This document shows positions 19,401 through 34,300 of a DNA stretch of 43,653 bases, one piece after another. Position 1 is the stretch's first letter. The number at the start of each line of letters is the position of its first letter. The stretch comes from Sphaerodactylus townsendi (lineage: Eukaryota): assembly GCF_021028975.2 (NCBI RefSeq), contig NC_059428.1, positions 147,952,348-147,996,000 of the forward strand. Direction: 5' to 3'. The translations under genes were made by a program, and so were the position numbers. Under the pieces are notes generated by a model, which did no database searches, was not told the origin of the DNA, and saw only the letters and a program-made list of their open reading frames with translations.

Positions 19401-22213
19401 ACTCGGTTCTAACCCTCAGTGGCTGCTTGGGATCTTGGGCACAGAAATCTTTTCCCAACACTGGCTCCTTGAGATCTGCACTTTTCCACAACTGCACTCT
19501 GATGTAAGGACCAGTTGCACCCCGGCCTGGGAGAGTCGTTTCAATGAAGCCCACACATTCCTACATAGCATCGCTCTAACTTATGCCACAAGCAATCACA
19601 TCTGGGATGCCACAACCTCCCATCCTCCCCTGGAGATGATGACAAGACCAAGGTTTTCAGGGTCTTGGCAAAGAAAAAGTGTTGTTCTGCTGTGAAGCTG
19701 ATCACTAATATTCCTCTCTGTCTCTTGGCGGGGGCGCCGTTTGCAGGCAATGGATGCGATTCAGAACACCAGCGAGACTGACATTTTGGACTCTAAACTC
19801 CAGGCGTACACAGATGACATCAGAACACTCTCCGAAACGCTGATGACTCTGGAGATGCAGCTGGTCGACCAGTTGGAGGTGAGGCCAAAGCAGTGCGAGG
19901 GTCCCTTCCCAGCGTGACATTTTATGGGGTGTATTTTTGAGACTCGAGCAGGACACACTCAATACTGGGGTGCTGTGTGGTTTCCGGGCTGTATGGCCGT
20001 GCTCTAGCAGCATTCTCTCTGGCCCCGTTTAAGCCTGCCATCTGCTTGGCTACGGCATCTTCCAGGAGGAGTCTGATGGGACCATCAGATCCTCTGAAGA
20101 TCTCAACAACCGATATAACGTCAGGATACTTAAACTACACCAACTATCCAATGATTCCGGCCGTGAAAGCCTTCGACAATACACTCAATATTCCTCCAAC
20201 GGGTCATAAGGGGAAATCACTAGGAACTGCCTTTCCTGCTGTGTCCCTCGCCACCGTTGATCTTATTGAGGCAAACCCTCAGGGTTCACAAGAACACAGC
20301 TTGAAAGCCACTGAGATCTCTGAATCCATTCCTAGACTTTCCAACTAAACCACTCAAGCAGCGGAGCTGGAGAATATAATGGCCCCAGACCACAGAGTTA
20401 CATCTTCCCCACCTCGGTTATCTTGTGATAATTAACAGTCAGAGACAACAGGAATAAAATTCCTCCGGGCGTCTAAAGGCTGGATTTCATTTCAGCGTGT
20501 TTGGGTTCTCTAGAAAGCATGCGCCCTTTTCGTGCTTTTCTCTCCTGTGCAGGAAGTCATCAAAGATTTTGAACGGAACATTTCTGACCTTGTGTCCCTC
20601 TTCATAGAAAATGAACAAGGGCTATATCCTTCCCGTGGCCCAAGGGCAGGTTTGTTCAGGACTTGAATCACTCAACATATTTGAGATTTCCAAAGCTGAC
20701 ACTTGAAAGCTTGAAGGAGGGCCTCATAAAAAGGGTCAGGAACAAGAGGGCACGAGTTGCAGGTTGCTAGACTTTCGAGCCTTCTTGAAAGGATCCGCAG
20801 TCATTTTAGAGGTGACTCTTAGAGGTAAATAAAAATGGGCTGATGTTTGGCTGAATTTTATAGAGGGAGGGGTTACTGTGTGCCTCTGGCTGATTTATTT
20901 TCTTCGTTTATATTCCATGTTTCCCTCCAGTGGGGACCTAAAACAGCTTAAATGGTTCTCCTCTCCTCCATATTGTCCTCTCAACAGCCCTGTGAAGAAG
21001 GTTAAATGGAGTGTGAGCAGCTGGAGACCCCAGATGGTAACAAATGCAGAGAAAGGCAGAGCAAAATTGTTTTGAGGGGGAAAAGACAGGGCTGGGGAGT
21101 GTTTCAGCAGCCTTGGCCAAAATGGAGAATATCTGAGGGCTCTGCCAAGGCTTCCATTGTTGTTGACACTGAGGAGTCCTTTGCCACCATCTTGGTTTGT
21201 GCCAAGGCCTCTGCTGTTGTTGACACTAGGGAGCCCTTTGCTGCCATCTTGGTTTGTGCCACGGCCTCTGTTGTTGTTGACACTAGGGAGTCCTTTGCCT
21301 CTGTGTTGACTTGTGCCAAAATGAGTCCATGAGTGACCCGCACCTTGCTGAACATGGCCCCCCTTGAAAACTGGTTGCCGGGCCCGGGTATAGAGCAGGA
21401 AAGCCAGACTTCTGCAGGTAGGCAGGCCTCTTTGCCTTTGCTTTCTGGATTTTTCTTAATCTCTCCCCATACGATGGCACAGTGCCGGGATCTTGAGAAT
21501 CATCACCACGAGAAGCTTCTTGAAATAGCCATCAACACGCTGGAGAAAATAATCAAAAGCGAGTTGGACGAAGACATACCAGACGACGTCCGGATGGTGA
21601 GACCTTCCCCCTCCTTTGTTGGTGTATTCCTGCCTGGCAGGGGGCTGGACTTGTGGTCTCTCCCAACTCTATGATTCCTCCTCCCCCAGCCCAAAGCTCT
21701 CTGGGTGCAAATCTTTGGAAAGAGAGCGGCGTTTGCTTTTATCCCATGGTAAATCAACACTTCCCTTCCTAGCTCTTCGTGGACAAGGACACGATTGTCA
21801 ACGCCGTCAATGCCTCCCATGATATCCACCTCCTGAAGATCGACAACCGGGAAGATGAGATCATCACCAAAGCCAATAGCTGGGCTTCTGCACTGTTAGG
21901 CACGGTAAGTAAAGCCCGACTGTCCCCCTGCAAACAGGTCCTCTGCTGACCCCTTTGTTGCTCTGAAAGCAGCAGGGCCTCGGTAGGGTTGGCCACCAAC
22001 ACAAAAGAATGACGGCCCCGGAACAAGCAGCCTCCCGCCCAGCTGACCTTCGGAGGGCATCCTCGAGCAGGCCAAGGATGCCACCCTCGATTTCCTGTCC
22101 TCCAGATTCACAAAAACGAAATAACGAGAAACCGCAACCGCGTGAAGGAGATCAACCAATTCATAGACCACCTCCACAACGAGCTGGAAAACATGGACGT
22201 TCTGGATCAGTAG
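10451..22213 (+). CDS. DRC3: Dynein regulatory complex subunit 3 (LRRC48), leucine-rich repeat ciliary protein, about 522 aa
   Basis: Coding exons: 10451-10613, 12705-12821, 14434-14600, 14733-14879, ~15852-15971 (5' end garbled), 16354-16466, 17598-17772, 19747-19878, 20553-20623, 21473-21596, 21773-21904, 22106-22213 (TAG). LRR motifs (LTKLQLDNNVIEKIEGL, DLSFNNIEVIEGL, DLSLFNNRISTIENL) and C-terminal MAQCRDLENHHHEKLLE, LFVDKDTIVNAVNASHDIHLLKIDNRED. Two introns are AT-AC. Confidence 0.94.
10921..11051. mobile_element. hAT-type palindromic MITE (family 1)
   Basis: Same arms as 4446-4569; degenerate flanking repeat CCATAAG / CCATACG. Confidence 0.87.
11727..11960 (+). mobile_element. tRNA/CORE-type SINE (Squam3-like)
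   Basis: A/B boxes and CORE-like block. Confidence 0.82.
12121..12443 (-). mobile_element. tRNA/CORE-type SINE (Squam3-like) with (AAG)n(TAG)n tail
   Basis: Near-identical to 41461-41752. Confidence 0.87.
12886..13163 (+). mobile_element. tRNA/CORE-type SINE (Squam3-like)
   Basis: A/B boxes; 3' end ATAAATCCAAACTCTTC. Confidence 0.82.
13930..14268 (+). mobile_element. CR1 LINE 3' fragment, subfamily B
   Basis: [26 protein letters not shown]; tail TTCTATGATTCT. Confidence 0.9.
14893..15314 (-). mobile_element. Solo LTR, copy 1
   Basis: Termini TGTCAGG...CCTGACG; flanks CTGAG / CTGAA; homologous along its length to 16887-17337. Orientation inferred from the minus-strand AATAAA in copy 2. Confidence 0.72.
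15388..15550 (+). mobile_element. Squam3-like SINE, 3' half
   Basis: CTGGGTGACCTTGGGC...ATAAATCCAAACTCCTCC. Confidence 0.8.
16467..17597 (+). other. U12-type AT-AC intron 1 of DRC3
   Basis: 5' ss ATATCCTG at 16467, branch point TTCCTTGAC 17577-17585, terminal CAC at 17597; joining gives in-frame ELLET-YKSKFVDIC. Confidence 0.9.
16887..17337 (-). mobile_element. Solo LTR, copy 2
   Basis: TG...CA termini and a perfect 5-bp TSD CTGTG (16882-16886, 17338-17342). Confidence 0.8.
18768..19395 (-). mobile_element. CR1 LINE 3' fragment, subfamily B, interrupted by a MITE in its tail
   Basis: Minus [32 protein letters not shown]; the tail ATCATAGAATCATA is split from the body by the insert at 18785-18925. 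Confidence 0.88.
18785..18925. mobile_element. PIF/Harbinger-like MITE
   Basis: Imperfect TIR GG.TCATTCCGCACA / TGTGCGGAAGGGGCC; near-identical to 43020-43160. Confidence 0.78.
19965..20180. mobile_element. Penelope-like element remnant with internally inverted end
   Basis: Flanked by the 10-bp direct repeat ACACTCAATA (19955-19964, 20181-20190); ends in ATTCCGGCCGTGAAAGCCTTCGACAAT, shared with 25831-25857. Confidence 0.7.
20624..21472 (+). other. U12-type AT-AC intron 2 of DRC3
   Basis: 5' ss ATATCCTT at 20624, branch-like TTTCTTAAT 21452-21460, terminal TAC at 21472; joining gives in-frame ENEQGL-MAQCRDLE. Confidence 0.9.
21143..21320. repeat. 57-bp tandem repeat, 3 copies
   Basis: TGCCAAGGC.TC...TGTTGTTGACACT...GAG.CCTTTGC..CCATCTTGGTTTG. 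Confidence 0.9.
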
Positions 22214-24069: not shown

Positions 24070-27000
24070 TATATATAGCTATATATAAATATATATATTT
24101 TATTTCTCAGTTGAAATTCCCGATACACTTCACCCCAGAGGCTTCTGCTAATCTTACAGAGGCTTTTAAAAAGAAGAATATAAGATCGGTAATAGACTGA
24201 GTAAGAACAACTGAGTAATAAAATATATCTCCACCCTTTCTTTTGCACCATCGGCCTTATTTTATTTATCTCCTGTGACTGGTGCAGACTTTTATTCCTG
24301 CTTAGCAAGATGAGTTTGAAAGCATGGAAGCAGAAACCCAGAAAGGGAAGGATTATTGTAAGCAGATAACAGTTGACGCTTGGCAGGTAGCAATCCCCCA
24401 CCTTTATAGCAATTCCCCCACCCCCACCCCCCAATGCACTTGACTGGCAGAAAGAGTGCAAACCATGCAAAGTAGGTAAATAATCTGCATAATTTATAAC
24501 TCACTCCAAGGGGGCCAAGCTTAGTGAAAACAAACTGAATCATCTGCGATAAGGTCATGCACGAAAACACAGTTTTCATTTGCATCGCTTCTGCACATGG
24601 TGCAGAACCCTGGCTGCCTCGATTCTAAATTCCAGCATTTTGTTTTCTACACATTCTTGGGGAGAAGATTTTGAGGGATTTCAGGGCCCCGTATGCAGAG
24701 AGAAGAACCTCGTCCAAGCAACCAAAGCTGGATTCAAGCCCTGCCAGTCAAACGGATGCTCCGGCCCCTGCCTTCACCCACTGCAAGTCCGTGCCCTCCC
24801 TGCACAAGGGGTCTGGAGCCCTCTGTGCTGCTTTAAAACGAGAGGAGGCCCGCTCAGAGCACACGACATCTCCCCACAGTGCATGGCTGGGAATCCCGTC
24901 CCCAAAATTTTAAAAGGCGCTACTGAAGTTCTGGATTGAGCTGGGGGGAGACTCACCTGGTATTCCTCCTCCAGGCGAGATAACAAGACAGCTTGCTCCA
25001 CCGTCAGTTGCTTGTCTACGAGGCCCATCGAGAGAATCAGAGACTTCAGCTGGGCTATCATGTATTCTATGCCTGGCGAGAGGGAAAAACGTTGCGGTTG
25101 CGCTCGCCATGTGAAGCAGCTTCCACCACTGGTTCACGCACCTCCCCAGGTCACAAAGATTAAAGGCTATCAAAAATTGCCCAAGCAGTTTCATGCAGTT
25201 TAGACTGGGGAGAGGCAGGGTTCCTCGACCTTTGGCCTCCCCATCCCAAACCCCACCCCACCGCCCCGCAGCAAGATGAGGAGGCTCAGGACTTTTGATC
25301 TCGGGAAGGAGACTTCCCACTGGCTTAGAAAACACTGCAAATGGGAAATGGGGTGGGGGAACAATTATGGAAAAATGTGGGAAGCTGCCCTGTCTGTACC
25401 ATGCAAAGCCCATGTGTTGTATGATGCAAGGTGGCTGGCAAAGGTGTCTTTGGTGCTTTGCGGGATGCTGGGCCCCATGATGCTGGTTGAAGAGCCGATG
25501 GTGACGTTGTACCTGGTTGAGGGTGGGGAAGGAGGAGAATAAAGAGATCACAGGTTAGATCTGCTGGGATCTAGAATCATAAAGTTGGAAGAGACCCCAA
25601 GGGCCATCATGTCCAGCCCCCTGCAATGCAGGAACACACCATCAAAGCACTCCTGACAGATGGCCATCCAGCCTCTGTTTAAAAACCTCCAAAGGAGGAG
25701 ACTCCTCCACACTGCGAGGTAGTGAATTCTACTGTCATCGAAATATCCTCTAAATGTGCCAGCCACAGATGCAGGCGAAAACGTCAGGAGAAAATGCTAC
25801 TGGAATATGGCCATATAGCTTGCTCCAGTGATTCCGGCCGTGAAAGTCCTCGACAATGCATCAACTCTCTTGTGATACAAGCCGTTGGTATTTGCGGGGG
25901 TGGTGGTGTGCCAGAATCCTGTGCCTATTTCGGGGGGGGGGGTTCCTTTTGCACCCACTCACCTCTTTTCCGCCCATGCAATGACAGGATCCCATTCATT
26001 TTTCTGCAATTCCACCAAGGCAGGCGGCTCCTCCACACGATAGCTGCAGCATCCCCGAAAGGGCAAGAAGAACACACAGCCGGTCACTGGACTGTTCAGC
26101 CACGCTGAAGCTGCATCTGTGCCAGTTGCCCTGTTTTGCCCTCTGCGCCCCTGCCCAGCCCCATCCTCAGTCTTCATGCTTTGTCCTGGCATGCTAATTT
26201 AAGGGACTCCCCAGCCTGCAACAAATGTCAGAAGCACTCCTACCAGATGGTGTCTGTCTCCAGGAACTTCACGGCCGCCCTGATGAGCTGTTCTTTGCTT
26301 CTCTGCGATGGGTTGTCCAGAGCTGTGTTACATAAAGTCGTCTGAAAAGAAAGGGATGGATTATGAACTAAACATCCCCACCTCCCTATGCCCTACGAAA
26401 AGAGACTTAGAGAACTGGGGATGGTTAGGGTTAGGGTTAGAGAAGTGAAAGTTAAGGGGGGACATGATAGCTATGTTTAAATGTTTGAAGGGATGCCATG
26501 TCGAAGAGGGAGCAAGCTTGTTTTCTTCTGCCTCAGAGACTAGGACACAGAGTAACAGATTCAAGGTGCAGGAAAAAAGATTCCACCTAAACATTAGGAA
26601 GAACTTCCTGACCATCAGGCTGGGATGGAGGTGGAGAACTACATTTGTCACCCTTGCAGGAAAACAGCAGAATAAGAACGCAAGAGAAAGAGAACTGTTG
26701 GACTCACCAGGTGCATGGTGAAAAACTGGATAGTGTCCCGCTGTGAATCCCACTCCGTCGCCACTGCAAGAGCCAAAGGCTTGCTGGGTACCATGAAGAT
26801 CTTATTCTGGGGAGTTTTCAGCTTCCGATGGTCCAGGTTGATTTCAAAACCGCCTAAAGGAGAAAGTTTTTAAATGTATATATTTTAGAAAGTTACCCAG
26901 TCTGCAGCTAGAATGGTAATATGGGGTTTGGGCAGTCCCGATTTTCCTGAGTCCTATTGTCTGAGCCCGGCATTCTCCTAACTTTGTACTCAATTTTGCC

Positions 27001-28320: not shown

Positions 28321-31300
28321 TGCCCGTGCGGAGCGCCTGCTGCTGCCCGCCGCCCCCGCCGCTGCCGCCGCCCTTGCCCGGCGCCGCCACCGCCGCCCGC
28401 CTGGAGCCGCCGCCGCCCATCAACACGGCCCAGCCGGGCGTCAGCACCAGCCGCCTCTACAGCGGCGCCAAGTTCCGCGGGCAGCAGCGCTCCAAGGGCA
28501 ACGCCTACGAGGTCGAGGTCGTCGTCCAGGTCCGCAAGCCGGGGGGGGGGGGGGGGGGGGGGTGGAAGTCTCGGCGCGCCTCCGTCGGAATGCGCGGGCA
28601 CGTGCGTGGGTGTATGCGAGTGGGTGGCGCGCGCATGCATGTACATACGTGGGCGTGCATGTGCGCTCTCACTCGTGTGTACGCTTTCTCAATATATATG
28701 AGCGCGTGCGTGTGCGTGGGTGAACATGTGTGTCAATACAGAGCTATACACACGTGCACTTATACACGTAAATGCTATACGCGCGTGCACGTATTTATAC
28801 ACGTGCACGCACATGTGTGTGTAAATATAGAGCCATACGCACACACATATTTATACACATTTTTTAACTGAGTAGGAATGCAGGTACTAGTGTCTTAAGC
28901 ATAGCAAGGGATAATAAACACGTGTGCATATGAATACTGCACATGTGCATACACGTTTATACACACTCATGCATTGTCTCTCACTGAATATATAGGAATG
29001 TAGGTATTAGTGTGTGTATGTATATCAAGGCATATGAGGTCATGAGTGTGTGTGTACATGTATAACTTATACACACACATATTTATACACTGAATATATA
29101 GGAATGCAGATATTGGTGTGTATATCAAGGGATAAACTTATGTGTGCCTATGTATATACATGTGCACACACATTTATACACACTCTCGCTGAATATACAT
29201 GAATACTTTCACTGATATATGTGAGTGTGTGTATATATATATGAATGTCTGTGTGAGTAGATCTGAATGCATGTGTATATAGGTGTACCCACATGTTTTT
29301 GAACACATTCTGTCTCGCTGAATATGTATGAATGCAGGTCTTAGCGTGTGCATGTATATTAGGCATACCCTGTTTCCCCTAATATAAGACATCCCCGAAA
29401 AATAAGACATAGTAGAGGTTTTGCTGAAGTGCAAAATATAAGGCATCCCCCAAAAGTAAGACATAGCAAAGTTTTTGTTTGGAAGCATGCCCGACGAACA
29501 GAACACAGAAAAATAAGACATCCCCTGAAAATAAGACATAGCGCATCTTGGGGAGCAAAAACTAATATAAGACACTGTCTTATATTCGGGGAAACACGGT
29601 ATATATGTGCGCATATGTATACGTGTGTGTTTGTAAATATATATTCAATGGAAAACTGATCTGTAATATATTCAATGGAAAACTGATCTGTAATTCAATG
29701 GGAGATTATCAAAGAAGTCCATGGCCTACACAGGAGGAAGCAATGGCAAACCATCTCTGTTTGTCCCTTGCCTGACCTGGATGGTCTACGGCCTAGGCTA
29801 ACCCCACCTGATGAGATCTCAAAAGCCAGAGGGGTGTAGTGGTTAAGAGCAGGTGGACTCTAATCTGGAGAACCGGGTTTGACTCTCTACTCCTCCACAT
29901 GAGTTGTGGACTTTTATCTGGTGAACCAGATGTATTTCCGCACTCCTACGTTCCTCTTGGGTGACCTTGGGCCAGTCACAGTTCTTCGCAGCTCTCTCAA
30001 CCCCCCCACCCCCAGTGTGTCTGTTGTGGGGAGAGGAAGGGAAAGGAGTTTGAAAGCTGTCTTGAGTCTCCTTACAGGAGACTCGGAAGCTTCTTAAATC
30101 CAAACTCTTCTCTTCTCTGGCAGGGTTGGTCTTTGTTAGAGCTTGGATGGGAGACCACCAAGGAAGTTCAGTGTCATGATGCAGAAGCAGGCAATGGCAA
30201 ACCAGTGTGGTGTAGTAATTTAGAGTATCAATCTCTAACTGGAGAACTGGGCTTGATTCCCCACTCCTCCACTTGAAGCCTTCTGTGTGACCTTGGGCCA
30301 ATCACAGTTCTCTCTCAACTCTCTCAGCCCCACTTACCTCACAAGGTGCCAGTTGTGGGGAAGGGGAGGGAAGACAATTGTAAGTCGCTTGAGACTCCTT
30401 AAAGGTAGAGAAAAGCAGGGCAAAAAAAACAAACTCTTTTTCTGCAGTGGTCTCTTGACCCCGTGGGGTCACCATAAATCAGCTGTGACTTGGCAGCACT
30501 TTCTGTCACCACTGTGTGTATATTTGTATATGTATCGGTCTGTACATATGTTTATGTATGAGGAAGGACTTTCGAGGCCATCAAGATTTTCAGGTGCTTT
30601 AGCTTACCCACTCTTCGATTTCGAATACCTTTAATGGCATATAAATAGTTTAAGATTAACTTAGCAAGATAATAACAGCCTTTACAACTTTACAACTTCT
30701 GACGAGTTAAAATAACACCATTTAAAAATTTAGCCACCGCTTCCAACAGCTTGTAGTTGTGGCTGTTTAAAAGATATATCACCTTCTGTTTATCTGTAAT
30801 GCCTTCACTTCCATGCAGGAAGGGGATTATGTGCTTCTTCCTACCTATTTCATAAAAAGGACAATTCAACAGCATATGAGATACTGTTTCCACAGAACCC
30901 ATGCCACACGGGCATTTCCTTTCTTTATGTGTGCTTACCCACTCATCTGCTCATACGCTGAATATCTTGCTCCTCTCTGAGGTGCTTGGGTACTTGAATC
31001 TAGCTTTTCTAAGTCCCCCCTCCCCCCTTGAAAATAAGTGTCCTGCATTCACTCCCTTTGTAGGAGCCTGCCTTGGCATTGTTAGTCACAATGTTGAGAT
31101 CGGCTTTACAGATTCAACTCTAGCTCTTCCGAGATCAACGAGATTTTCAGGTGCTTTTGAGAGCCAACACTTTCTCAGGTACAAGTAGAAGTGGAGATCC
31201 CTGAACCTTTTACAGCTCAGGTGGGAGAAATGTTGGGGGGAAGAGAGGCAGAATGTTAGGCAGCATAGCTAGAAAGGCTCCAGGATCTTCCGATTTGTAT

Positions 31301-34300
31301 CTGATGAAGAGAGATTTGACCCTCGGAAGCTCATCCCTCCCAAAATCTTGTGCTCTCTGAGGGGACTTCTGGACTCGATTCTAGCTATTCTGTTGCAAAC
31401 CAGCATGACTACCTATGAAACCATCTGTTTGCATGCATGCTTGTGTCTTTTCTACACTAGCTGTGGACATCGGTAGTAGTGATGTAAACAGCCACAGGCA
31501 AACCTTTCTATGCTTCTCTTTCTGGGTACCTAGAGAGTGAAGCCCCATGGGGCAGAGAGGTGACCTGCTCATGAGTTCAATCCTGACAGAAGTCAGTTTC
31601 AGGTAGCCGGCTCAAGGTTGATCCAGCCTTCTGAGGTCTGTAAAATGAGTACTCCCACCATATCCTGGCTGCCTATGGCAACAAGGAGCTAAGCTTTAGT
31701 GCAAATATTCATTAAAATGCGACAGTGAATGTGCAGAAGCGCAAAACACGCATAGCAACGTGTACAGCTTTGCTTTGGGGACCTTGGGTCAGCTACCTAC
31801 CCATTCTCAGTCTGTCCTACCTCGTGGGATTGTTTTTGGAGAAAGTGGAAGGGAGGAGGTGAGCCACCTTGGTAATCAAAGGGTGGGAGGTGAGCCACAA
31901 TAACTGGGAAATTATCATAAATCTTAGTCCAATGAATACCAATTAGCAGGGGTCTGCAATGGTCCAATTGGCCATGCTGGCAGGGGCTGATGGGAATTGT
32001 AGTCCATGAGCATCTGGAGAGCCGCAGGTTGCAGACCCCTGGTCTATTTCAGAGTCCCGCTGATAGTTATTTTTCGTAGTATCAAGAATCGCTCATAAAC
32101 AGACCACCCTAGTAAATGTTGTCATGTGATCTCACCCCATGCATCAATAATGATCCTCGCAGCTTTGATCTAACGGGGCTCTTCTGATGGATGTCCTTAT
32201 CATTGTCTTCTGCGTGTCAGTGAAGTCTTTTTCTGTTTTGTTTGATGTACCTATATGTCAAGCCGCCCTTCCTTATTTTGATGTGTTTGTGTGTTCGTCA
32301 GCTGTTGTTGAATGGTACATTATTGAATTATTGTACGTGATTTCACGTTTGACGCTCGCCAACTTGGGAGACCCTGCTTGGGTGGAAAAGAAGCATTTTC
32401 AATAAACAATCTATGTTGATCAGGGGAAATGAGAACAGGGGAGGAGGGAAAGGGATGGTCTAAGGCTAAACAGCTGGCGCTGGGAGTTGGATGTTTGGAA
32501 GCAGAAGCAGGGGTTTGGGGGGGGAGACTCTGGTATTGCAGTCAGAGAGTGTTTCCTCCGGTGTCTGGTTTGTGGGAATCATCCGGATCAGCGGCAAGCA
32601 CGCAGCCCAGCAGCTGCTTGCGTGGCGGGGAATGAGTCAGTTTCCTTGCTGTGTGGTTGCCACTTTGGAAACCCAAGGTGGTATCCCCTGCCTGTTCTTC
32701 CCTTCTGGAAAAACAAATACTGGTAAAACTGTCCAGGGGATGTGGGGAGAAATGCATGCAGTGCTTGCGGGGGGAGGGGGTATCGGAGTCGGTCCAGAAA
32801 TCTCCCCGGTCCAGAACATTGGATGTGAATAGCAGCCACTGGTCACTGTGTCTCGTTGCGTCTGGAACAGTGTGAAATGCACATGAAACATTTCTGACTG
32901 GCGCAGAGCCGCGCTTTAGAGAAAGCAGCCTTCTGTTGCTTAGCAACCACCAATATTTTCCCAACGTTACCTTAATTTAGCTGACAGGCTCCCCGATTTT
33001 TGGCTTTGGAAGGTTTCTCTGCATGGGGGATAAAAACAGCACATTACCTTTAATGCATTAACTGTAAATTTGCAGCCAACCAGCCCCGCGCAGCTGAATT
33101 CATGGCTAAGGTTTATCAGCAGCTTATTGTGTCCCCACAGCTAGGCTGGATCTTGATGAACAACCCCTGAATTGTTTTATTTTGTTTATTTTCCTCAATT
33201 AATACCTCGCTTTTCTCCCTGGCGCGGACCCAAGGTGGTTCACCTCCTCCCTTCCACTATCTCCAAAAACAATCTTGCGTGGTAGGACAGACTGAGAATG
33301 GTTAGGTGGGCTGCTGTGTGGTTTCCGGGCTGTATGGCCGTGTTCTAGCAGCGTTCTCTCCCGACGTTTCGCCTGCATCGGTGGCTGGCATCTTCAGAGG
33401 ATCTGAATGGTTAGGTGCCTGAGCCAAGGGCCCCAAAGCAAGCTTTCATAGCAGAGTGGGGATTTGAACCCGTGTCTCCTGGTTCGTAGTGTGCCAGCCT
33501 AACCACTAACAGTGAGGACCAGTATCTTGCATTCCCTACTTGCAAGGAGACTTCTGATTTTGCCGGTATTGGGAAACAAGACGCTGGGCTCAACGAACCT
33601 TGATTTTCGGGGTTCCCTTGTGGTTTCCGATTCCTCCATCTTTCCCTTGTTCCTTTCTTCATTTTCTACCCCATTTTTCTTTCAAAGAGCTCAGGCTGGG
33701 GTACGTGGGTGGCACTTTTAGCACCCTGCCTTCCCAACTTGGTTTACTCAGTTGCCCCCGAGCATGCATAATTAACAGGAGGGCATTCCTTTCTTTTCCA
33801 GCATGTGGACAAGGAGAATTCCTATCTCTGCGGCTACTTGAAGATTAAAGGCCTTACGGAGGTAAGCGTGGGGGCACACGGGAGACCGAGGGTGCCACTC
33901 CGGGAACAGAATAGAGGTATGCTTACCCGACTGGGGTTTTCAGTGTTGGTGATTTTCCAACTTTGCTCCCCTGCAGGAATATCCGACCCTCACAACTTTC
34001 TTTGAAGGGGAAATAATCAGTAAAAAGCACCCGTTCTTAACACGGAAGTGGGACGCGGACGAAGACGTTGACCGTAAGCATTGGGTGAGTCCCCCCGGTG
34101 TGACTTGCTTTTTCCCTGTCACGGGGAGTGAACTCTTTCAACTGACTGAAGGGGGGGTGGGGGTTGCTCTATAAAAAAAAGACCCTTCTGTGTAAGAAAC
34201 TGTATTTTCTTTATTTCATTCATACCTTTCACAGCATCCCTGTGAGGTAGGTGAGGCTGGGAGTGTATGACTGGCCCAGGATCACCCACTGAGTGACTGC

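What the first reader, a model, noticed from the sequence alone, without database searches (positions are those of the whole stretch)
33296..33417. A ~96-bp mobile insert that is mostly an intact hammerhead ribozyme
Seen: a short insert bounded by a perfect 13-bp direct repeat (GAATGGTTAGGTG) inside GID4 intron 1. Its minus strand has all hammerhead core elements: stem I UCCU/GGGA, CUGAAGA, stem II GCC(A)GC/GC(A)GGC, GAAA, a 2-nt CG loop and GUC, with predicted cleavage between 33363 and 33362. Established: Penelope-like retroelements carry minimal type I hammerheads whose very short palindromic stem III (here ACGU) is thought to need dimerisation. Inference: this is a recent, extremely truncated Penelope copy or a retrozyme-like non-autonomous family in this lineage.
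Basis: partly seen in the sequence, partly recalled or inferred. Interest (0 to 1): 0.7.

Follow-up and report, generated by a model that had tools for sequence, protein, structure and literature searches.

The report
Short Penelope retrotransposon stub with hammerhead
This 96-base insert is one of over 20,000 short scraps of a known lizard-type jumping gene (Penelope/Poseidon), carries that element's hammerhead ribozyme motif facing away from the host gene, and was likely copied from the element's internal start point back to the front end of its messenger RNA.

Summary
In detail: an exact 13-bp direct repeat flanks a 96-bp insert in GID4 intron 1, and its minus strand has a complete minimal type I hammerhead core (43 of 96 nt, so not 'mostly'). 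It is the 5' end of the ORF of a Poseidon-clade Penelope-like element: 89/93 identical to the start of an 819-aa RT ORF in the same genome, and by eye 74/92 identical to Anolis PAc, whose ribozyme is already tested. A 20-mer of it occurs 22,072 times. Copies end 3' at the two known internal RT start sites. Their 5' ends are not random: 39 of 100 stop 11-18 nt before the ATG, about 30 nt below a TATATA box, so most are likely run-off copies to the mRNA start. It is not a retrozyme (1 tandem pair in 100 matches; short and long copies share haplotypes). The insert is shared with a related species, and the ribozyme is antisense to GID4. This scan noted the same family and a similar reading before on other DNA. 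Verdict: ordinary member of a known kind, with one testable mechanistic lead.

The parts
33296..33308 (+). Target-site duplication, left copy (13 bp as seen; 33308 and 33307 also match the element's +83/+84, so the true length may be 12)
   Evidence: paralogous single-copy site
33309..33404 (-). Insert: positions -13..+82 (A of ATG = 0) of a Poseidon-clade Penelope-like element
   Evidence: 89/93 identical to the ORF start in L137; 22,072 exact 20-mer matches in the genome
33359..33401 (-). Minimal type I hammerhead motif: stem I 33401-33398/33362-33359, core CUGAAGA 33397-33391, stem II 33389-33371, GAAA 33370-33367, CG 33366-33365, predicted cut between 33363 and 33362
   Evidence: sequence; descriptor 1 hit vs 0 of 300 shuffles; same position relative to the ATG as the tested PAc ribozyme
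33308..33391 (-). First 28 codons of the element's ORF ([28 protein letters not shown]); start codon lies at the foot of stem II
   Evidence: full ORF L137:2799-5258, 819 aa, Pfam RVT_1 E 1.1e-12
33307..33312 (-). 3' end of the insert = the upstream one of two family-wide 3' end points (+82..+85; the other, 'tail', at about +115..+121); inferred RT start site
   Evidence: 52 of 100 matches end at +74..+89 and 46 at +110..+124; loose ends at +82 and +117; PMC11167929
33402..33406 (-). 5' end of the insert (-13, or -15 with 2 nt shared with the target); family-wide pile-up point; inferred mRNA start
   Evidence: 39 of 100 end at -18..-11; genome counts
33405..33417 (+). Target-site duplication, right copy
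   Evidence: 33417-33418 differ in one organism C contig
33230..33510 (+). Host short interspersed repeat interrupted by the insert (resembles Sauria SINE; name recalled, not tested)
   Evidence: paralogue at 31770-31861(-), 82/92; high depth over 33433-33473; outer bounds approximate
33802..33861 (+). GID4 exon following the intron (context; exon before it ends near 28529)

Best explanation
The insert is a 96-bp piece of a Poseidon-clade Penelope-like retrotransposon (its hammerhead motif plus the first 28 codons), inserted with a 12-13-bp target duplication, and it was likely made when the element's own enzyme started reverse transcription at its internal site (+83) and ran back to the likely 5' end of the mRNA (-13). 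Shown: identity with the element, the two family-wide 3' ends, the 5' pile-up, a TATATA box about 28-35 nt above it in long copies, dispersal, antisense orientation to GID4. From the literature: internal RT start at two sites 30-40 nt apart, nicking and extension of both strands, uncleaved RNA as template, protein-assisted ribozyme (PAc). Inferred: the pile-up is the transcription start; such copies lose the TATA box and are dead on arrival; when both target strands are primed the two short cDNAs join head to head, often at the GATC palindrome at -12..-9 (71 of 100 matches have an inverted piece upstream); this copy is the simpler one-arm outcome. The ribozyme is a passenger and would not cut GID4 pre-mRNA. 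Identity as a Penelope piece about 0.97; the run-off-to-mRNA-start step about 0.55-0.6.
For: Parent ORF with RT. By-eye gap-free match of 74/92 to the PAc template printed in PMC11167929 Methods. 3' ends 52 + 46 of 100 at two sites. 5' ends in a positional sample chosen by a 3' anchor: 39/100 at -18..-11, 18 at -10..-1, 18 at 0..+51, 16 at -300..-19, 9 longer. Genome-wide: 22,072 arms hold -11..+8, 7,426 (34%) reach -18, 6,108 (28%) reach -23, i.e. about 14% lost per base across -11..-18 against 2.5% per base across -18..-23 in the short-spacer subfamily. An 8- to 25-fold step in summed contig depth at the same place in 4 of 4 runs from 3 studies (a rough measure). TATATA upstream in the long copies and in PAc; TATA+Inr was also proposed for a rotifer Penelope pLTR (PMC3846280 passage). 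Simple one-arm copies with a duplication end there too (L006, L035, L043, L059, L088, L099).
Against: No transcription start was measured. The ends form a spread (-11 to -21, mode -12), and part of it is microhomology (GATC palindrome; AGAT repeated at -13 and -2; inverted GCATC mimicking -17). No excess of a cap-derived G at -14: A is the commonest base in the 100 listed. The predicted shift of ends with TATA spacing is small once upstream variants are allowed (79% vs 88% retained from -18 to -23; the first 54% figure was an artefact of a too-strict pattern) and could reflect age or further variants. D. virilis Penelope has a TATA-less internal promoter and an intron ending at the hammerhead's 5' edge (PMC2377424, PMC4209133). 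The 100-copy sample is all from the first 7.3 Mb of one chromosome.
Confidence: 0.6

Rival explanations
1. Ordinary 5' truncation of a long pLTR-ending transcript, concentrated at -12 only because the GATC palindrome or the folded/protein-bound hammerhead stops or resolves the cDNA there.
For: Mode of ends is -12, the edge of the GATC palindrome (29 of 99 arms); many junctions show microhomology; strong 5' truncation and inverted ends are general for PLEs (PMC8557442, PMC3846280 passages).
Against: Other 4-nt palindromes in the same 100 nt give only single ends; one-arm copies without inversion also end at -11..-17; an RT moving 3' to 5' meets the hammerhead's stems from the +32 side, so a structural stall would be expected there, not at the far edge (inference).
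Confidence: 0.22
2. The boundary is a 3' splice site (pyrimidine tract + CAG at -14..-12) and short copies come from spliced or splicing-intermediate RNA.
For: Long copies read pyrimidine-rich...CAG just before -11; in D. virilis the intron ends at the 5' side of helix I (PMC4209133).
Against: No recurring same-strand upstream exon in the 38 sampled copies ending at -18..-9 (28 inverted, 8 simple, 2 direct); no GT..AG joint ending there among the 15 joints shown of 96; PAc has no AG at that position but keeps the TATATA; many ends run on to -13..-17.
Confidence: 0.1
3. A discrete non-autonomous retrozyme/SINE-like family that copies itself from short copies through ribozyme-cut or circular RNA.
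For: Very high copy number of a near-constant 96/130-nt unit; retrozymes are reported to derive from pLTRs (bioRxiv 10.64898/2026.07.22.740005); rare tandem pairs exist (L006/L007, L084).
Against: 1 head-to-tail pair in 100 matches; unit ends are not the cut site (cut lies inside); 51 short and 20 long arms share the same two haplotypes; short copies lack the TATA box; unit is below the 170-400 nt of animal retrozymes (PMC7229834).
Confidence: 0.05
4. The ribozyme acts on host RNA at this locus (exapted regulator of GID4 or of an antisense transcript).
For: Core is intact here while only 39 of 71 sampled arms keep the 3' half of the core; insertion is shared with organism C.
Against: Antisense to GID4; single copy without a partner; stem III of one pair; PAc ribozyme inactive without the element's protein; an intact core is common among young copies.
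Confidence: 0.03

Closest known systems
Poseidon_Ac (PAc), Penelope/Poseidon-clade PLE of Anolis carolinensis (Frangieh et al. 2024, PMC11167929)
   Same: Gap-free 74/92 identity over -9..+82 by eye; ORF starts at the foot of hammerhead stem II; cut site 26 nt after the start codon; ACGU stem III; two 3' ends 30-40 nt apart ('tail'); TATATA upstream; parent ORF with RT.
   Different: Different family in another lizard-type genome; N7 is A, stem II has an A-A mismatch; GATC palindrome at the 5' edge, absent in PAc; this copy is only 96 bp. The parts of the paper I could read do not describe a 5' pile-up of genomic copies (Fig. S2 not visible).
Minimal PLE hammerheads (Cervera and de la Pena 2014, PMC4209133)
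   Same: Type I, 4-bp helix I, long helix II, extra base between positions 9 and 10.1, G10.1-C11.1, palindromic stem III; thousands of single dispersed motifs ascribed to truncated PLEs.
   Different: Nothing of kind; this lizard family was not among the passages read.
Non-LTR retrozymes (Cervera and de la Pena 2020, PMC7229834; bioRxiv 10.64898/2026.07.22.740005)
   Same: Small, non-coding, type I hammerhead, pLTR-related, needs PLE enzymes.
   Different: Retrozymes are tandem units with mostly canonical hammerheads and circular RNAs; here copies are single or head-to-head, bounded by RT start and a 5' stop, with the same haplotypes as long copies.
Minus-strand strong-stop DNA of LTR elements (analogy, recalled)
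   Same: RT starts near the 5' end of the RNA and would run off its end after about 100-130 nt.
   Different: Here priming is by nicked target DNA, so the short product is integrated; no tRNA primer, integrase or LTR. An analogy only.

Membership tests
Penelope/Poseidon EN+ PLE (as fragment) | Derived from an element with a single RT-bearing ORF | tested here: met
   819-aa ORF begins with the insert's codons; RVT_1 E 1.1e-12
Penelope/Poseidon EN+ PLE (as fragment) | C-terminal GIY-YIG endonuclease with CCHH motif in the parent | tested here: inconclusive
   GVYRIPCSCGQVYIG and later H residues seen by eye; Pfam gave no GIY-YIG hit at E<=0.1
Penelope/Poseidon EN+ PLE (as fragment) | pLTR that repeats the ORF's 5' end downstream of the ORF | tested here: met
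   19 references (from 16 distinct places plus re-fetches) carry the YVDD region upstream of this sequence on the same strand; L123 shown
Penelope/Poseidon EN+ PLE (as fragment) | Optional 30-40-bp tail; inverted truncated copy at the 5' end | tested here: met
   52 short-end and 46 tail-end of 100; 71 of 100 with inverted upstream piece. The focal copy has neither tail nor inversion
Penelope/Poseidon EN+ PLE (as fragment) | Target-site duplication | tested here: met
   12-13 bp here; 12-13 bp is the mode in the sample (26 of 100; 35 none found; 7-mers likely chance)
Penelope/Poseidon EN+ PLE (as fragment) | Placement in the Poseidon clade by RT phylogeny | not tested
   No tree built; clade rests on the by-eye nucleotide match to PAc
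Minimal type I PLE hammerhead | Core CUGANGA...GAAA...UH with helices I and II, palindromic stem III | tested here: met
Minimal type I PLE hammerhead | Match to an Rfam hammerhead model | tested here: not met
Minimal type I PLE hammerhead | Self-cleavage (dimer or protein-assisted) | not testable with these tools
   Shown for the homologue PAc with protein; indirect hint from ends at +29
Non-LTR retrozyme | Head-to-tail tandem units each with a hammerhead | tested here: not met
   Single copy here; 1 tandem pair in 100 matches
Non-LTR retrozyme | Lineage independent of autonomous copies | tested here: not met
   51 short and 20 long arms share two haplotypes at 5 sites; low resolution
Non-LTR retrozyme | Abundant linear and circular monomer RNA | not testable with these tools
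   Needs RNA data for this organism

The most novel reading that the evidence does not exclude
Most insertions of this vertebrate Penelope family are complete run-off cDNAs from the internal RT start to the capped 5' end of the mRNA, a 'strong-stop'-like dead-end product, so the genome holds some 15,000 fossil primer-extension products that map the element's promoter; and the 1-2% of arms that begin exactly at the hammerhead cut (257 vs 108 at a control position) record ribozyme cleavage in the living germline, which RNA-seq failed to show for PAc.
Probability: 0.4. Interest if true: 0.5.

Novelty: new member of a known kind. Interest (0 to 1): 0.25.

Why it matters
The single insert matters little: it is one of tens of thousands. 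The family pattern could matter to people working on how Penelope elements move. Internal initiation near the mRNA's 5' end raises the question of how long copies and pLTRs are made at all; a fixed 5' stop at the promoter would explain the many 100-130-bp single and fold-back stubs in lizard genomes and gives a direct test with the existing PAc in vitro system. An excess of ends at the ribozyme cut would be the first in vivo trace of cleavage for this clade that I could find, but the present support is one control position.

Tried and rejected
Rfam: no hammerhead hit. Folding z-scores uninformative. Sequencing runs: no RNA holder listed, so no start site or expression could be examined. Empty allele: no 33308-to-33418 joint among the 15 joints shown of 21 in runs X3, X5, X6, X8; X5 covers the flanks only in patches. 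Cap-G test at -14: confounded by inversions, A commonest. TATA-spacing test between subfamilies: first result (54% vs 88%) was inflated by a pattern that missed upstream variants; corrected 79% vs 88%, treated as weak. Twenty loci of a more distant family (about 72-79% RT identity) were fetched for hammerhead covariation; only 1 of 20 gave a motif, so no covariation analysis was done. Two candidate full-length pairs (L094, L104) and L077 were separate short insertions. Pfam found nothing in the 228-aa L033 piece. Lunse et al. (PMC5785218) is not held; known only from its citation in PMC6765202. One of the 100 arms was not recovered (99 analysed); one search's haplotype table dropped 28 arms under 85% identity. 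Literature searches for a promoter-bounded or strong-stop Penelope product listed no paper that states it; only listings and passages were seen, and Fig. S2 and the GenBank file of PMC11167929, which map genomic copy ends, could not be viewed and may already show it.

Full report
Observation. The window shows an exact 13-bp direct repeat at 33296-33308 and 33405-33417 around 96 bp. A simple descriptor finds it once in the window and in 0 of 300 shuffles; Rfam models do not detect it. The motif covers 33359-33401, 43 of the 96 nt. The gene context is right: exons at 33802, 33980 and 35920 match Pfam Vac_ImportDeg and a first exon ends near 28529. GID4 is on +, the ribozyme on -, so it is not in the GID4 pre-mRNA.

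The site. The insert interrupts a short interspersed repeat. A paralogue in the same window (31770-31861, -) aligns without gaps, 82/92, to the flanks joined with one copy of the target, which shows that the direct repeat is a duplication made at insertion. The paralogue and one contig of organism C differ from the window at 33417-33418, and both ends of the duplication share two bases with the element, so the true length is 12 or 13 bp; 12-13 is the mode in the family. Another sample of the same organism has both junctions without differences (X3). In organism C, contigs of X6 and X8 run from unique intron 23 nt into the insert and one X8 contig bridges the right junction with 33 and 62 nt. 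With flanks 2.5-5.5% apart, the insertion predates that split.

What it is. A DNA search of the own genome gave copies at 95-97%. A 22-mer near the 3' end occurs 17,227 times and a 20-mer over -11..+8 22,072 times; these count arms, not events. A long copy led to an 819-aa ORF (L137:2799-5258) with an RVT_1 domain and a GIY-YIG-like motif seen by eye. The insert is 89/93 identical to its start and translates as [28 protein letters not shown]. Long copies carry the same sequence again downstream of the RT, as a pLTR. The template of Anolis PAc printed in PMC11167929 matches the insert at 74 of 92 positions without gaps (counted by eye). That paper (parts 1-3 of 4 read; supplement figures not visible) reports that the ORF starts at stem II, the cut lies 26 nt after the start codon, RT starts at two internal sites that define the 'tail', both strands are nicked and extended, the ribozyme cleaves only with protein, cleavage is not needed for insertion, and no RNA-seq reads began or ended at the cut.

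Family anatomy. I took the first 100 matches of the 3' anchor (first 7.3 Mb of C1, no selection on 5' end). 3' ends: 52 at +74..+89, 46 at +110..+124, 2 other, as for PAc. The focal copy uses the first site. 5' ends: 39 at -18..-11, 18 at -10..-1, 18 at 0..+51, 16 at -300..-19, 9 longer. 71 have an inverted piece of the element directly upstream; one pair is head-to-tail. In a second sample of 99 arms holding -11..+8, 20 were called long by motif (about 3 more by eye) and the rest end at -11..-21, mode -12. Genome-wide, 34% of such arms reach -18 and 28% reach -23. Laying four public runs on a long copy gives an 8- to 25-fold depth step at the same place (contig depth is a crude measure).

Why there. 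Long copies have TATATA starting about 28-35 nt above -13, where the sequence reads as an initiator-like TCAGAT (the consensus spacing is from my own knowledge). PAc keeps the TATATA but has neither the AG nor the GATC at this place. The simplest reading is that RT starts at +83 or +117 on an mRNA that begins at about -13 and runs off its end; two such cDNAs from the two nicked strands join head to head, and one alone gives the focal type. Against it: no start site was measured, no cap-G excess was seen, microhomology blurs the ends, and the shift expected from different TATA spacing is small (79% vs 88%). D. virilis Penelope has a TATA-less promoter and an intron ending at the ribozyme edge (PMC2377424 passages; PMC4209133 parts 1-2), so a splice acceptor is a real rival, but no recurring exon was found upstream. 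A TATA+Inr in a pLTR and palindromic inverted junctions were already noted for rotifer Penelope (PMC3846280 passages).

Ribozyme activity. The focal copy includes both sides of the cut, so it came from uncut RNA. Arms that begin exactly at the cut number 257 against 108 at a control three bases on; 17 of 20 and 7 of 10 inspected were true junctions, and 6 inverted pairs in the 100 listed have both arms starting at the cut against none in the control list. This is 1-2% of arms, rests on one control, and at least 4 of the 20 are explained by AGGA microhomology, so it is a hint only.

Retrozyme? Not met: no tandem array here, tandem pairs rare, the unit is not cut-to-cut, and 51 short and 20 long arms share two haplotypes. 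Definitions from PMC7229834 (passages) and bioRxiv 10.64898/2026.07.22.740005 (part 1 of 5 and passages). General PLE features from PMC8557442 and PMC6765202 (passages).

Earlier notes of this scan describe the same family in this genome and others and reach the same identification; one also proposes copying up to the RNA start. My reading was written down before that look-up; those notes are not independent support.

Verdict. A real, correctly described feature, but an ordinary stub of a known and biochemically studied retroelement. Interest 0.25; the promoter run-off and cut-site signals are the only parts worth follow-up.

Noticed in passing
window 19964-20183: Head-to-head (fold-back) insertion of the same family with one tailed arm and a duplication ACTCAATA; both hammerhead cores look decayed.
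   Followed up: partly
window 25743-25861 and 1830-1951: Two older single copies; both begin near -10. The one at 1830-1951(-) belongs to a sister family with a different sequence after the cut site.
   Followed up: partly
G000 genome-wide: Arms starting exactly at the hammerhead cut are about 2.4-fold more frequent than at a control position; several inverted pairs have both arms starting there (e.g. C2:59490022-59490065, C3:166011703-166011746, C4:8559889-8559932).
   Followed up: partly
L137:2799-5258 (G000:C3:109298-111757): Uninterrupted 819-aa ORF preceded by an inverted stub instead of a promoter-bearing pLTR; its own 5' end also lies at about -10, and no downstream ribozyme-bearing pLTR follows the 3' UTR.
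   Followed up: partly
long copies: At least three upstream (promoter-region) variants with different TATA-to-ATG spacing share a near-identical hammerhead/ORF start; loosely linked to A or C at +83.
   Followed up: partly
L256 and loose ends: A sister Penelope family shares the hammerhead core and stem II but has U at the cleavage position and different flanks.
   Followed up: no
L014, L016, L055, L079: Copies abut long G/C homopolymer-like tracts; may be sequencing or assembly artefacts at fold-back sites.
   Followed up: no
L095/L096, L191/L192, L197-L199: Copies with shared flanks, i.e. local segmental duplications that slightly inflate the samples.
   Followed up: no
window 33417-33418: Two adjacent bases differ from both the paralogous repeat and an organism C contig, and this change is what makes the duplication a perfect 13-mer.
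   Followed up: partly
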